42,811 nt of DNA from Candidatus Parcubacteria bacterium (lineage in GTDB: Bacteria; Patescibacteriota; Minisyncoccia; Phycocordibacterales; CAIZLB01), in the NCBI GenBank assembly GCA_039795775.1, contig JBDKLC010000001.1, forward strand, positions 1 through 42,811. Reading direction: 5' to 3'. The notes under the pieces were generated by a model. The model was not told the DNA's origin and ran no database searches. It worked only from the letters and a program-made list of their open reading frames with translations. A program made the translations under genes and the position numbers. Positions 28,930 to 42,811 of the stretch are shown piece after piece; position 1 is the first letter of the stretch; the number at the start of each line of letters is the position of its first letter.

Positions 28930-29687
28930 AAAGAAAACACGAGCTCCAAGATGAATACCGACTGACAGAAATTTGAAAACTTCATTCTGCCCCGTTACAT
29001 TTCAACGAAAGTTGTTTATGGTCTTTTCAAGACGGAGGCAGAGTACGACTTCTTAACTACCCGTTAAAGGAGTCGTACAATCCACCGTGTTACTTCTCAA
29101 GGTAACCGGTGGGCAGGTAATACATTAAGTGATTGTGGTTTTTACATTTCCTAATAGGAAATGTAAGGGCGTATGGTGGATGCCTTGACACAACAAAGCG
29201 ATGAAGGACGCGGCATAGCGGCGATATGCTCCGGGGAGATGCTAAGCAATCTTTGATCCGGAGATTTCCGAATAGGGAAACCTAAGAGACTTGATCTCTT
29301 GTTCTGCTATTAAGCAGTTCGTATACCCAGGGAAGTAAAACATTTCAGTACCTGGAGGAAAATAAAACAATCTCGCAAGAGAACCATTTCCTAAGTAGCG
29401 GCGAGCGAAAAGGAAGTAGCCCAAACCAAGCTTTCCTATGGATGGCAACGTAAGTTGCACTCCATAGGGTAGCTTGGGGTTGTAAGGTGATGCACGAGCA
29501 ATTTATTGTTCAAAAAGTTACAAAATGTTTCGTTAACAGAACGCGCTGGGAAGCGCGGCCCAAGTAGGTAATAGCCCTGTATGTGAAAACGAAATATCTT
29601 TTAGCGTCATTCTTGAGTACCTCGAGACACGAATGGCTCGGGGGAATCCACCGGAACTAACCGGTAAGGCTAAATATTTGTTGTGAT

Positions 29688-29724
<37 letters not shown>

Positions 29725-29780
29725 AAGTCCGATGAGGACAGTGAAATAGACCTGAAACCATATGCCTACAAGGAGTCGGC

Positions 29781-29930
29781 GCGGGCTGAACTCTCTACAT
29801 AATTTATTTGTATTTACCCAGATGAGAATTTTTTCTCAACTGGAATTTTTGTTTACACACTTTTCGAAGTGATACAAGTAAATAAAAACAACGTAAATAT
29901 ATTTTAAATTATATGAAGAGTTCAGTCCGT
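29781..29930 (+). other. Expanded helix 25 (IVS or expansion segment, about 130 extra nt)
   Basis: AT-rich branched insert closed by GCGGGCTGAACTCT/AGAGTTCAGTCCGT, between TACAAG and GCGTGCCTATTG. Confidence 0.85.
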
Positions 29931-31272
29931 CACGGCGTGCCTATTGAAGAATGAGCCAACGAGTTGATGCATGCTGCGCGGATAAGGGCGAGAGCCTGGA
30001 TCCATAGGGAAACCGAGTGTTAATAGCGCGTATGTAGTATGCATCAGACCCGAAGCCAATGCGAGCTTACCATGAGCAGGGTGAAGTACCTCGAAAGAGG
30101 TATGGAGGCCCGAACCCGTTAGTCGTTCAACTCTTTGGGATGACTTGTGGTAAGAAGTGAAAAGCTAATCGAGCTTGGTAATAGCTGGTTCTCTCCGAAA
30201 TAGCTTTTGGGCTAGCGTTACGTGTTCCTCTAGGGGGTAGAGCACTGGAAGGACTCGACAGGGAGAAATCTCGCGAGTCCTATCAAACTCCGAATACCTA
30301 GAGTTATAGCGTGGCAGTTAGACCGTGGGGGCTAAGCTCCACTGGTCAAAAGGGAAACAGCCCTGATCCATATTTAAGGTCCCTAAATCTATGTTAAGTG
30401 CACTTAAGGTGGTGAAGTTTCTGAGACAATGAGGAGGTTTGCTTAGAAGCAGCAATCCTTGAAAGATAGCGTAACAGCTCACTCATCGAGAGATTTCGCG
30501 CCGCAAATAACCGGGGCTAAAACATAGTACCGAAACTTGGGGTGCGTTCCGTCTTCGGACGGTTCGCGCGGTAGGAGAGTGTTCTTGTCCGCGATGAAGG
30601 CAAAGGGGTGACCCATGCTGGAGCGTCAAGAAGTAAGAATGTTGGCACAAGTAACCACAATCGATGTGAAAAACATCGACGCCGAAAGATCAAGGTTTCC
30701 TTGGCAATGATTGTCATCCAAGGGTTAGTCAGGCCTAAGGGGATGGTGAGAACCGAACCCGATGGACACATGGTTAATATTCCATGACTTTCACGTATAG
30801 TGATGAAGGGACGGAGTGTAGTATGTAGAGCGAATTATGAATTTTCGTCCATGCCTTAAGGGCGTTCTGTAGGTAAGTCCGCAGAACTGATTTTAATATC
30901 GTCCCAAATGGAGTGGAGATGCTGGGGATTCGTTTCCAGATAATTCTACAAAGCACGCTTCCGAGAAAAGCTTCTAAACTTATATACGTGAAAACTGTAC
31001 CGCAAACCGACACAGGTGATCAGCTCGAGTAGAGCAAGGCGAACGGGTGAGAGGTCTTCAAGGAACTCGGCAAAAAAGCAGCCGTAACTTCGGAATAAGG
31101 CTTGCCCTCTTTATGAGGGTTGCAACAAAAGTATCCCTGGCAACTGTTTATCAAAAACACAGCTCCCTGCGAACTCGCAAGAGGATGTATAGGGGGTGAC
31201 ACCTGACCAATGCCAGAAGGTTAAATATTGGCGGTGACATAGCAATATGTTTGCTGACTGATATATGCCCTG

Positions 31273-31307
<35 letters not shown>

Positions 31308-31536
31308 TCAGCGTTCATTTCATATGAATGCTGAAGGACTAGGACTGTTGTAAGTTTCTGATAAATTAGATTGAACAGCACAGTTCCATTACACACATAG
31401 AATAGCTACCTACAATGTAGTAATACATTGTTAGTCCATCATAGTTAAATAGAGACCAACACTATGCATCCCAGCTTCTTTAATCGAAAGATATAAGAAA
31501 AGGATGAAGATAGAGTCCTTCTCTAAGGAATAGAAG
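31308..31536 (+). ncRNA. Group I-like intron at L1931 (229 nt, degenerate core, no homing endonuclease)
   Basis: Splits CCTAAGGT|AGCGAAATTCC; upstream exon ends in U and insert ends in G; R-like TAGAGACCAAC, P8 CATCC/GGATG, S-like AAGATAGAGTCC. Confidence 0.8.
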
Positions 31537-32199
31537 AGCGAAATTCCTTGTCAGGTAAGTTCTGACGCGCACGAATGGTGTAATGACTGGGGAACTGTCT
31601 CGAAGACTCGCCCGGTGAAAATGCAATAGCGGTGAAGATGCCGCTTACCTGCAGCTAGACGAAAAGACCCCAGAAGCTTCACTGTAACGTGATATTGAGT
31701 ATATGTTTTTACTGCGTAGCATAGGTGGGAGAGATTGAAGTCAGGATTTTGGTTCTGATGGACTCGTCAGTGAAATACCACTCTTTCAAAATATATATTC
31801 TAACCGCGACGGCAAAAACGTCGCGAAACAGTATCTCGTGGTCAGTTTTAGTGGGGCGCTATCCTCCCAAAAAGTAACGGAGGAGTTTATTAAGGTTGGC
31901 TAGGCGCGAATGGAAACCGTGCCGATAGTGCAATGGCATAAGCCAGCTTAACTGTAAGACGTGAATGTCGAGCAGATGCGAAAGCAGAACATAGTGATCC
32001 GACCATACGCGTTAGACGCGGTGGGAGCTCATCTGATAAAAGCTACTCTGGGGATAACAGGCTGGTTGTATCTAAGAGTCCATATCGACGATACAGTTCG
32101 GCACCTCGATGTCGGCTCAACTTATCCTGGGGCTGGAGAAGGTCCCAAGGGTTTGGCTGTTCGCCAATTAAAAAGTTACGCGAGCTGGGTTCAGACCGT

Positions 32200-32621
32200 T
32201 CAGAAAGGAAACATTAGGTATCAGAATTTAGATGATAGAAGTACTGCTGTATTTCTAAAGTCTAAATTCTGATAGCTAACTTCTATTTTGAACAGTCTGA
32301 ATCCTTCGAGAGATTGATTTATACGAGTAGTATAAACACTGTTAGATTAACCTATTGATTTGAAATAAAATCAAAATCACGGCGGTCATATATTGAAAAA
32401 TATAATGACATAGTTTACTAGTATCGGTGAAGTCCGTCTGAAAACTGACAACTAAACAGTTTTCAAGGATAATACCGAGGGAAGCCCAAACTCTGTAAAG
32501 AGATTAGGCACCCGTAGAGACTAAACGTAAACCATCCGGCAATTTATGATAGAAGTAAAATTCTATTCATGAAAAAGGATGATGATATAGTCCATTCCAC
32601 GTAGCAATACGTGAAAAGAAG
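32200..32621 (+). ncRNA. Group I intron at L2593 (422 nt, no homing endonuclease)
   Basis: Splits GACCGT|CGTGAGAC; IGS TCACG-G-CGGTC (32377-32387); P3 GTTTAC/GTAAAC, P4 TCGGT/ACCGA, P7 GACTA/TAGTC, P8, P9 with GCAA loop, terminal G. Confidence 0.93.
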
Positions 32622-32999
32622 CGTGAGACAGGTTGGTCTCCTATCTACTGCAGGCGTTGATACTTGAGAAGATTTGCCCTTAGTACGAGAGGACCGGGGT
32701 GAACTGACCTCTGGTGTACCAGTTGTCGCGTCAGCGGCATTGCTGGGTAGCTAAGTCGGGAATGGATAAGCTCTGAAAGCATCTAAGAGCGAAGCCAGCT
32801 TCAAGATTAGGTATCGTTTGAGACCCGTAAGAGATGATTACGTTGATAGGCGCTAGATGTAAGCACAGTAATGTGTTCAGTCGAGGCGTACTAATGCGTC
32901 GATTCCTATTAGGAAATGTGAATGCCACGATCGCTAAATGTATTGTTTGTAAAAATTATGAAGTTTGAAATTGAAAAGTAAGCAAAGTTAAATCCTTTG

Positions 33000-33107
33000 T
33001 TCTGGTGACTTATCGGAAGGGTCACACCTGTTCTCATTCCGCACACAGAAGTTAAGCCTTCCAGAGGCGATGATACTCTAATAGGGGAAAGTAGCTCGTC
33101 GCCAGAA
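33000..33107 (+). rRNA. rrf: 5S rRNA (short)
   Basis: TCTGGTGAC...CACCTGTTCTCATTCCGCACACAGAAGTTAAG...CGATGATACT...GAAAGTAG..CGTCGCCAGA. Confidence 0.93.

Positions 33108-42116: not shown

Positions 42117-42811
<695 letters not shown>

What the first reader, a model, noticed from the sequence alone, without database searches (positions are those of the whole stretch)
31308..31536. Degenerate group I-like intron at L1931 that may be unable to self-splice yet interrupts an essential 23S region
Seen: correct boundaries (U|...G|) and 3'-half landmarks (TAGAGAC, P3-like CATAG/CTATG, P8 CATCC/GGATG, AAGATAGAGTCC). However, P7 is GACCA versus GAGTC (two mismatches; the G-site pair is kept). I find no P4 (TCGGT/ACCGA), no J4/5 GAA wobble receptor and no P6, only an ACAATGTA-gtaa-TACATTGT hairpin. 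The expected IGS (TGCT-G-CCTT) reads TGCT-G-AAGG. Instead GAAGGACT (31333-31340) pairs perfectly with the P7' strand AGTCCTTC (31514-31521), and TAGGACTG can pair with exon CGGTCCTA. It shares its ends (TCAG...AGAAG) and P8 with the intact L2593 intron. Established: position 1931 adjoins helix 69/70 at the subunit interface, so retention should be deleterious. Inference: removal by a non-canonical route, such as help from the sister intron's core, a host protein, or nuclease cleavage with or without ligation. This is the best candidate here for an undescribed RNA-processing system.
Basis: partly seen in the sequence, partly recalled or inferred. Interest (0 to 1): 0.8.

Follow-up and report, generated by a model that had tools for sequence, protein, structure and literature searches.

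The report
Group I intron without P4–P6 domain
The 229-base insert in the only 23S rRNA gene of this tiny bacterium belongs to a widespread, conserved family of stripped-down group I introns that have lost a domain thought to be part of every group I core, yet keep the parts needed to find, cut and rejoin the rRNA.

Summary
The insert (31308-31536) is real. It sits exactly between the rRNA bases that flank the known L1931 intron site, in the only 23S gene of an 822-kb genome. It is not a one-off wreck, though. It is GCUACCU at 31405-31411 and pairs with both exon ends (AGGU|AGC). A further 11-bp duplex holds the 5' exon. The L9 loop pairs with the 3' exon and covaries with exon variants. Every mini copy has A, not G, opposite the splice-site U. 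Relatives that keep P4-P6 mostly have G, so the wobble pair and the domain that normally reads it were lost together. Some mini-bearing genomes have no other group I intron and no LAGLIDADG gene, which argues against help from a sister intron. The likeliest mechanism is ordinary group I chemistry on a reduced core. No RNA evidence was obtained, and autonomous splicing remains untested.

The parts
31293..31303 (+). 5' exon segment (UAACGGUCCUA, 3' side of helix 69) bound by the intron
   Evidence: RNAalifold on 35 sequences predicts an 11-bp duplex with 31340-31350, paired in 33-35 of 35 per column. The exon is invariant, so covariation cannot test it.
31304..31307 (+). last four 5' exon bases AGGU, the exon strand of P1; splice site after U31307
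   Evidence: Complementary to ACCU 31408-31411; paired in 33-35 of 35 (helix 1).
31308..31334 (+). H1: hairpin starting at the first intron base (11 bp, 5-nt loop)
   Evidence: 9 of 10 aligned pairs have changes on both sides (helix 2); also in the MFE fold.
31336..31340 (+). helix A, 5' strand GGACU
   Evidence: Pairs with AGUCC 31433-31437. First pair GC 30 / UA 4 across relatives (helix 4). In L020, L021 and L026 both strands differ from the window's yet remain complementary (read sequences).
31340..31350 (+). second exon-binding site UAGGACUGUUG
   Evidence: Pairs with exon 31293-31303. The GGACUG part was required by my search pattern, so its invariance is partly by construction.
31351..31404 (+). 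variable region between the exon-binding site and the guide (holds GAUAAA and AUUACA motifs shared with relatives)
   Evidence: Length ranges from about 25 nt to over 150 nt in relatives. Too short in the 185-193-nt members to stand in for P4-P6.
31405..31411 (+). internal guide sequence GCUACCU: GCU pairs with 3' exon AGC (P10), ACCU with 5' exon AGGU (P1); A31408 faces the splice-site U
   Evidence: Conserved as GYURCCU in all family members. R is A in all minis and G in 27 of 31 P4-P6-bearing relatives.
31412..31431 (+). P2 hairpin (8 bp) with GUAA loop
   Evidence: 8 of 8 pairs have changes on both sides (helix 5).
31433..31437 (+). helix A, 3' strand AGUCC
   Evidence: See 31336-31340.
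31440..31444 (+). P3 5' strand CAUAG
   Evidence: Pairs with 31462-31466; 5 of 5 pairs covary (helix 6).
31445..31450 (+). 6-nt linker where P4-P6 lies in canonical relatives
   Evidence: Guide-to-P7 distance is 39-43 nt in minis and 96 nt or more in relatives carrying P and Q elements.
31451..31456 (+). P7 5' strand AG-A-GAC with bulged A31453
   Evidence: Invariant in 35 of 35 (A31455 in 33). Pairs G31452-C31518 and 31454-31456 with 31515-31517 (helix 7).
31462..31466 (+). P3 3' strand CUAUG
   Evidence: helix 6.
31467..31506 (+). P8 (CAUCC ... GGAUG with a variable distal part)
   Evidence: 4 of 5 pairs covary; the CC:GG pairs are nearly invariant (helix 8).
31507..31514 (+). J8/7 AAGAUAGA
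   Evidence: A,A,G,A,-,A invariant. Matches the Rfam group I consensus at this place (alignment).
31515..31518 (+). P7 3' strand GUCC
   Evidence: Invariant.
31519..31535 (+). P9 hairpin (UUCU/AGAA); loop segment AAGGAAU (31525-31531) pairs with the 3' exon
   Evidence: P9: 4 of 4 pairs covary (helix 9). Loop-exon pairing: AU 30 / UA 5 (helix 10). All 10 relatives with a variant exon have the matching loop.
31536..31536 (+). terminal G (omega G), 3' splice site
   Evidence: G in 48 of 48 complete minis.
31537..31549 (+). 3' exon: AGC (P10 partner) and AUUCCUU (31543-31549, L9 partner)

Best explanation
This is a mini group I-derived intron. It arose from an ORF-bearing L1931 intron through a deletion that removed the homing-endonuclease gene together with the whole P4-P6 domain.

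What remains is a substrate domain and a catalytic half. The substrate domain comprises P1/P10 on the guide GCUACCU, P2 with a GUAA loop, helix A and hairpin H1. The catalytic half comprises the P3-P7 pseudoknot, P8, J8/7, P9 and omega G.

The intron grips the 5' exon with 15 nearly contiguous base pairs (11 + 4). It grips the 3' exon with 3 (P10) plus 6-7 (L9 loop) pairs.

Inferred mechanism:
- P2 stacks on P1, and its loop docks on the conserved CC:GG pairs of P8. P1 is therefore held in the P3-P8/P7 cleft without the J4/5 receptor.
- This would explain why the G.U wobble has become a U-A pair.
- Guanosine bound at the conserved G-C pair next to the bulged A of P7 attacks after U31307.
- Omega G31536 then enters the same site, and the exons, aligned by P10 and the L9-exon helix, are ligated.

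Shown: the anatomy, its conservation and the covariation. Inferred: that splicing occurs, that it uses guanosine, and that no dedicated protein is needed.
For: 1. Exact L1931 boundaries in the only 23S gene of a 99.8%-complete genome.
2. 53 proposed pairs are 94.0% paired in 35 relatives, against 75.4% in shuffles (0 of 500 as high) and 36-42% when slid. 33 pairs change on both sides.
3. P7, the bulged A, J8/7 and omega G are invariant. These are the catalytic landmarks of the Rfam group I consensus.
4. The guide pairs with both exon ends. Its central base is A in all 50 minis and G in 27 of 31 relatives with P4-P6.
5. The L9 loop follows exon variants: AUACC/GGUAU 6 of 6, GUACC/GGUAC 2 of 2, GUUCC/GGAAC or GGAAU 2 of 2. 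This shows selection on exon alignment.
6. The canonical relative L021 has its ORF in L6 and a 3' end almost identical to the minis'.
7. The main mini clade (37 rows, support 98/97) spans many candidate phyla, so the form persists.
8. Three mini-bearing assemblies have no other group I match, no LAGLIDADG_1/_3 match, and a 23S with no room for another intron.
9. CPR rRNA insertions are reported to be removed from transcripts (passage in PMC11270868).
Against: - No RNA evidence for this intron. The one usable RNA-like run has window-identical exon contigs at depth 4000-6000 and none on either intron. A probable DNA run of the same study also lacks both introns, so that strain may simply be intron-free.
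- From recall, not tested here: in canonical group I ribozymes P4-P6 scaffolds the core, and a P4 phosphate helps bind a catalytic metal. Engineered P4-P6 deletions of the Tetrahymena ribozyme are only weakly active.
- A U-A pair at the cleavage site is unusual.
- A group I intron at this same site in Simkania is titled 'unspliced' (reference lists seen; paper not held).
- The family was collected with a pattern that required the exon, a T and GGACTG, so those letters are invariant partly by construction.
Confidence: 0.62

Rival explanations
1. The RNA keeps the group I fold but cannot catalyse alone. A general host protein, not intron-encoded, replaces P4-P6 as scaffold, as proposed for lichen degenerate group I introns. 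The chemistry is still group I.
For: Lichen rDNA group I introns average about 233 nt, fail to self-splice in vitro, and are removed in vivo (passages of PMC8527467). Loss of P4-P6 should weaken the core (recalled).
Against: No LAGLIDADG_1/_2/_3 domain in this genome, and no _1/_3 in three other mini-bearing assemblies. No candidate cofactor was identified. The minis occur across many candidate phyla, so any cofactor would have to be universal.
Confidence: 0.2
2. The mini intron borrows the P4-P6 domain of another group I intron in the same cell (here the L2593 intron at 32200-32621), acting in trans.
For: This genome and G023, G160 and G256 each have at least one canonical group I intron in 23S. 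From recall, P4-P6 can complement a deleted Tetrahymena ribozyme in trans in vitro.
Against: 11 of 45 mini-bearing assemblies have no Intron_gpI match at E<=0.001, and 25 of 45 have none above the cut-off (strict filters, MAGs of unknown completeness). G405, G441 and G407 have complete 23S genes of 3190, 3236 and 2951 nt against a 2925-position model, including minis of 204, 227 and 205 nt.
Confidence: 0.05
3. The insert is not removed and stays in mature 23S rRNA as an expansion, as the title of the Simkania L1931 paper implies for that organism.
For: Title of Everett et al. 1999, seen only in reference lists. No direct splice-junction evidence was obtained here.
Against: Selection maintains a guide complementary to both exon ends, the L9-exon covariation and omega G, none of which serves a retained insert. 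If kept, the 15-bp clamp on helix 69 would compete with the native fold. CPR insertions are reported absent from transcripts.
Confidence: 0.07
4. The insert is cut out by host nucleases without ligation, leaving a fragmented 23S, like RNase III-processed intervening sequences.
For: Fragmenting intervening sequences are known in bacterial 23S and are suggested for other CPR sites (23IS2, 23IS4; passage).
Against: The two ends of the insert do not pair with each other in a long stem; H1 and P9 are local hairpins. P10 and the L9-exon helix, which align exons for ligation, are conserved.
Confidence: 0.04

Closest known systems
Canonical L1931 group I introns of bacterial and organellar 23S rRNA (Thermotoga, Synechococcus, Simkania; CPR site 23IS7 with I-ShaI)
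   Same: Same insertion site. P1/P10 guide, P3-P7-P8-P9 core and terminal G are present. The CPR relatives L020, L021, L073 and L082 share the whole 5' module (H1, helix A, GGACUGUU, distant guide, P2) and the 3' end. Haugen 2007 (PMC1995217, passages) and Tsurumaki 2024 (PMC11270868, passages) list L1931 introns.
   Different: The listed bacterial ones are 654-700 nt with a LAGLIDADG gene and a full core. This one is 229 nt, has no ORF, no P4-P6 and a U-A pair instead of G.U at the splice site. Rfam scores are 35-54 bits for six canonical relatives, against no hit at E<=1 for seven minis.
Degenerate group I introns of lichen-fungus nuclear rDNA
   Same: Short (mean about 233 nt), have lost sequence needed for self-splicing, sit in rRNA, and are still cleanly removed in vivo (PMC8527467, passages).
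   Different: They are eukaryotic. The passages do not say that the whole P4-P6 domain is missing. Here the loss is a clean excision of P4-P6 in bacteria, coupled to loss of the wobble pair.
Engineered P4-P6-deleted Tetrahymena ribozymes
   Same: A P3-P9 half plus substrate helix without P4-P6, reported to retain weak activity.
   Different: Those are laboratory constructs needing high Mg2+/polyamine or P4-P6 in trans. This is a natural, conserved and widespread form with extra exon-clamping helices.
The L2593 group I intron in the same 23S gene (32200-32621)
   Same: Starts with a hairpin at its first base, has its guide about 180 nt from the 5' splice site, and has CAUCC/GGAUG in P8 and the same J8/7-P7 motif.
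   Different: It keeps P4-P6 (65.2 bits to Intron_gpI) and a G.U wobble (GCGGUC against exon GACCGU).

Membership tests
Group I intron (Rfam RF00028 / classical definition) | Match to the family covariance model above its gathering score | tested here: not met
   12.9 bits against a cut-off of 50, E 0.95, covering only the 3' half. Seven other minis gave no hit at E<=1.
Group I intron | P3-P7 pseudoknot with P8, conserved J8/7, and a bulged base next to a G-C pair in P7 (G-binding site) | tested here: met
   P3 5 of 5 and P8 4 of 5 pairs covary; P7 and J8/7 are invariant.
Group I intron | P4-P5-P6 domain with J4/5 and the J3/4, J6/7 junctions | tested here: not met
   Only 6 nt lie between the P3 5' strand and P7. 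The domain is present at that place in relatives.
Group I intron | 5' splice site after a U that forms a G.U wobble with the internal guide | tested here: not met
   U31307 faces A31408. The base is A in all minis and G in 27 of 31 canonical relatives.
Group I intron | Internal guide forming P1 with the 5' exon and P10 with the 3' exon | tested here: met
   GCUACCU against AGGU|AGC, 97.9% of cells paired. The exon is invariant, so there is no covariation test.
Group I intron | Terminal G at the 3' splice site | tested here: met
   G31536; G in 48 of 48 complete minis.
Group I intron | Guanosine-initiated two-step self-splicing | not testable with these tools
   Needs in vitro splicing. The RNA-run evidence was inconclusive.
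Mini L1931 intron family defined here | H1 at +1, helix A, GGACUGUU, guide GYUACCU, P2, 39-43 nt from guide to P7, L9 complementary to 3' exon +7 to +12 | tested here: met
   The window aligns throughout with 34 relatives and sits inside the 37-row mini clade (98/97).
RNase III-type intervening sequence | Long stem formed by the two ends of the insert | tested here: not met
   The ends form separate local hairpins.

The most novel reading that the evidence does not exclude
A natural, widespread class of bacterial group I-derived ribozymes self-splices with no P4-P6 domain and no G.U wobble. It uses only P1-P2 plus P3-P7-P8-P9 and a roughly 25-bp exon clamp. This would make it the smallest natural group I architecture (185-230 nt) and would show that the P4-P6 half of the universal core is dispensable in vivo.
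Probability: 0.4. Interest if true: 0.88.

Novelty: new variant of a known kind. Interest (0 to 1): 0.76.

Why it matters
P4-P6 is treated as part of the invariant group I core. It folds first, scaffolds the active site, and reads the G.U wobble at the splice site.

A conserved family that deleted it while keeping every other catalytic landmark is a natural deletion experiment. The family changed the wobble G to A in every mini copy, and the tree suggests this happened in two or three separate lineages. This makes several questions directly testable:
- what the minimal natural group I ribozyme is;
- whether extended exon pairing and a P2-P8 contact can replace P4-P6;
- how introns survive loss of their homing-endonuclease gene.

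It also matters practically. These inserts escape Rfam, so they would be counted among the roughly half of CPR 23S insertions not classed as introns.

Tried and rejected
- Four runs were laid, all as Logan contigs.
- Exact joints 31307->31537 appear only as short contigs (side 25) in RNA run X6. Similar joints appear in DNA-like runs. Because the flanks are universally conserved, these most likely come from intron-free organisms.
- X5 has window-identical exon contigs at depth 4000-6000, more than a 2-Gb run could give as DNA of a 0.82-Mb genome. It has zero depth on both introns.
- X4 (probably DNA, same study) shows the same pattern at 215-300x, and both carry three fixed differences at 31746/31750/31785. 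That strain may lack the introns, so no verdict is possible.

**Searches that found nothing useful**
- Metagenome scan with a 36-nt species-specific exon stretch: 0 hits.
- BLAST of the intron against 401 phylum genomes: only matches of 39 nt or less. Relatives were found by exon-anchored patterns instead.
- Six of the 80 loci were chance matches in non-rRNA DNA and were dropped (L039, L046, L080, L096, L100, L107).
- Earlier-findings look-ups returned nothing.

**Readings rejected**
- A hidden P4-P6 in the variable region: rejected because 185-193-nt members have only about 25 nt there.
- Mini introns at other rRNA sites: the short Intron_gpI hits examined were either the minis themselves or the 3' part of an ORF-bearing intron.

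**Tree**
- The first run dropped 28 rows through a faulty motif filter. It was redone with 56 rows.

**Literature**
- Searches for a natural group I intron lacking P4-P6 found none in the held library.
- Everett 1999 and Nesbo 2003 are not held. Brown 2015 was not found.
- Supplements of PMC11270868 (Tables S1-S3, Figs S1-S3), which may list these short 23IS7 inserts, could not be seen.

Full report
**Context**

The window comes from an 822,618-bp, six-contig genome rated 99.8% complete. It has a single 23S gene at 29150-32915, followed by 5S. The start of a 16S gene lies 9 kb further on. The 23S is 3766 nt against a 2925-position model. The excess is mainly two inserts: the one under study and a second at 32200-32621.

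**The observation**

The insert is 31308-31536, 229 nt, between ...CGGUCCUAAGGU and AGCGAAAUUCC....

The last exon base aligns to position 1933 of a 2906-nt annotated E. coli 23S gene. That is the L1931 site if the annotation's two extra bases are at the 5' end.

The boundaries are unambiguous: U before the insert, G as its last base. The RNA folds much better than shuffles (-58.4 kcal/mol; z -4.89; 0 of 200 shuffles as low). No ORF longer than 48 aa overlaps it on either strand. Rfam's Intron_gpI model gives 12.9 bits (E 0.95) on the 3' half only. The second insert scores 65.2 bits.

**Relatives**

A plain BLAST of the intron found only short matches. An exon-anchored pattern found inserts after U1931 in 9 of 401 sampled genomes of the phylum, all starting with U. 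Seven of these share a distinctive 5' module with the window.

A second pattern (exon, U, a 25-55-nt gap, GGACTG) was run over one genome per species. Six were chance matches outside rRNA and were dropped, leaving 81 family members with the earlier ones. This pattern fixes the exon, the first U and GGACUG by construction.

**Two forms**

In 50 members the distance from a conserved heptamer GYURCCU to the P7 5' strand is 39-43 nt (the minis). In 31 members it is 96 nt or more and holds recognisable P4 and P4' strands, P5 and P6, sometimes with an ORF.

Six of seven such canonical members given to Rfam score 35-54 bits. None of seven minis gave a hit at E<=1.

The window is a mini. After the P3 5' strand (31440-31444) come six bases and then P7.

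**Structure**

I aligned 35 minis with 15 + 20 nt of exon (A1) and counted a structure I had read from the sequences.

| Measure | Result |
|---|---|
| Proposed pairs | 53 |
| Cells paired | 94.0% |
| Paired in shuffles | 75.4% (0 of 500 as high) |
| Paired when partner slid 1-3 columns | 36-42% |
| Pairs with changes on both sides | 33 |

By helix, the pairs with changes on both sides are H1 9 of 10, P2 8 of 8, P3 5 of 5, P8 4 of 5 and P9 4 of 4. P7 is invariant. Helix A has GC 30 / UA 4 at its first pair.

Invariant positions include the P7 strands, the bulged A, most of J8/7 and the terminal G. All 48 complete minis end in G.

**The guide**

The conserved heptamer GCUACCU (31405-31411) is the guide:
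- ACCU pairs with the last four exon bases AGGU;
- GCU pairs with the first three bases of the 3' exon, AGC;
- P2 follows directly.

The L2593 intron in the same gene has the same layout. Its guide CACG-GCGGUC lies about 180 nt from its 5' splice site.

**Exon clamp**

RNAalifold, run independently, pairs exon 31293-31303 with intron 31340-31350 (11 bp, 33-35 of 35 sequences per column).

On the other side, the L9 loop AAGGAAU (31525-31531) pairs with exon AUUCCUU (31543-31549). Here the exon varies in some hosts and the loop follows:

| Exon variant | Loop | Count |
|---|---|---|
| AUACC | GGUAU | 6 of 6 |
| GUACC | GGUAC | 2 of 2 |
| GUUCC | GGAAC or GGAAU | 2 of 2 |

This is direct evidence that intron-exon pairing is under selection.

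GAAGGACU with AGUCCUUC is complementary in this sequence, but it fails in relatives: 82.5% paired against 83.5% in shuffles, and its outer pairs are broken in 9, 14 and 21 of 35. Where GGACU becomes UGACU, the partner that changes is AGUCA after P2, not the P7 strand.

**Wobble pair and P4-P6**

The guide base facing the splice-site U is A in all 50 minis (U-A pair). It is G in 27 of 31 canonical members (G.U wobble). Four canonical members have A.

From textbook knowledge (recalled), J4/5 in P4-P6 is the receptor of that wobble pair. Losing both together makes sense and supports both assignments.

These are related sequences, not independent events. A tree of 56 distinct complete members puts 37 minis, including the window, in one clade (98/97). 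Three others (L023, L024, L030) fall among G-type canonical introns (88/92). This gives 2-3 origins in the best tree and in the 5-95% bootstrap range, although the strongly supported branches alone do not exclude one origin.

**Origin**

L021 is canonical, has A in the guide, and carries its ORF in the P6 loop. Its 3' end is almost identical to some minis. One deletion from just after the P3 5' strand to just before P7 would remove the ORF and P4-P6 together.

Tsurumaki et al. note ORF-less, shorter inserts at the same CPR sites that are highly similar outside the ORF. They classed only 45% of 23S inserts as group I using Rfam (PMC11270868, passages). I saw nothing there on P4-P6 loss. Their supplements were not available.

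**Helpers**

This genome and three other mini-bearing genomes have canonical introns elsewhere in 23S.

Across 45 further mini-bearing assemblies, however, 11 have no Intron_gpI match at E<=0.001 and 25 have none above the cut-off (strict filters, completeness unknown). Three of the 11 have full-length 23S genes of 3190, 3236 and 2951 nt that already include minis of 204, 227 and 205 nt.

No LAGLIDADG_1, _2 or _3 match occurs in this genome. No _1 or _3 match occurs in those three. A sister intron or an intron-encoded maturase is therefore not generally needed.

**RNA evidence**

This was inconclusive; the details are under Tried and rejected.

**Verdict**

The anatomy is firmly established, at about 0.9 for the structural claims. 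The mechanism is inferred: group I chemistry on a core reduced to P3-P7-P8-P9. In this reading, P1 is positioned by stacking on P2, by a probable GUAA-P8 contact and by a long exon clamp, rather than by P4-P6.

I put removal by the intron's own group I chemistry at 0.62. Self-splicing of the bare RNA under near-physiological conditions gets about 0.4.

Rivals:
- an obligatory host protein (0.2);
- retention in mature rRNA (0.07);
- trans help from a sister intron (0.05);
- cleavage without ligation (0.04).

The intron fails three defining tests of the group I family: the model score, P4-P6 and the wobble pair. I therefore file it as a new variant derived from that family, not as a plain member.

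Four literature searches of the held library found no natural group I intron lacking P4-P6. The nearest precedents are:
- lichen degenerate introns;
- engineered deletions (recalled).

Noticed in passing
window 32200-32621: The second 23S intron (L2593 site) is 422 nt, not the 238 nt that Rfam marks (32377-32614). It starts TCAG right after GACCGU. Its guide CACG-GCGGUC is at 32378-32387, about 180 nt from the 5' splice site. A near-palindromic stretch at 32188-32303 draws spurious miRNA-family hits on both strands.
   Followed up: partly
window 29150-33107 and 42117-42811: Gene order is 23S, 5S, then about 9 kb, then the start of a 16S gene on the same strand. The 16S therefore lies downstream of, and unlinked from, 23S-5S.
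   Followed up: no
window about 29480-29560 and from about 29836: Further small expansions of 23S relative to the bacterial model: about 30 and 21 nt near model positions 283 and 313, and a longer one after position 583 (alignment, cut off).
   Followed up: no
L040, L048, L053, L062, L073, L085, L089, L097 (also L029, L056, L082): Among canonical, G-type relatives at L1931, 8 of 17 complete copies end in A, 2 in U and 1 in C instead of the usual terminal G. All 48 minis end in G.
   Followed up: partly
L023 (G160) and L024 (G023); also L044, L049, L048, L050, L029: The 3' exon departs from rRNA sequence about 20 nt after the L1931 intron. In L023 an Intron_gpI hit follows directly (1022-1306, 65.9 bits). 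This implies a second intron near L1951 separated by a roughly 20-nt exon.
   Followed up: partly
L094, L074, L083, L063, L087: Some minis carry large inserts in peripheral loops while the core is unchanged: about 190 nt in L9 (L094), about 110 nt in P8 (L074, L087), and 80-150 nt in the variable 5' region (L063, L083).
   Followed up: no
tree, e.g. L042 / L086: Closely related minis sit in genomes labelled as different candidate classes (Minisyncoccia and Saccharibacteria). This suggests horizontal spread of an ORF-less intron, or mis-binned rRNA contigs.
   Followed up: no
runs X4 and X5 on window 31700-31800: A wastewater study holds a close relative (three fixed differences at 31746, 31750, 31785) whose contigs cover the exons but neither intron.
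   Followed up: partly
L158 430-760 (G414): An ORF-bearing intron just upstream of 23S model position about 2527, whose ORF runs up to the P7 strand. An L2593 intron homologous to the window's follows 100 nt later.
   Followed up: partly
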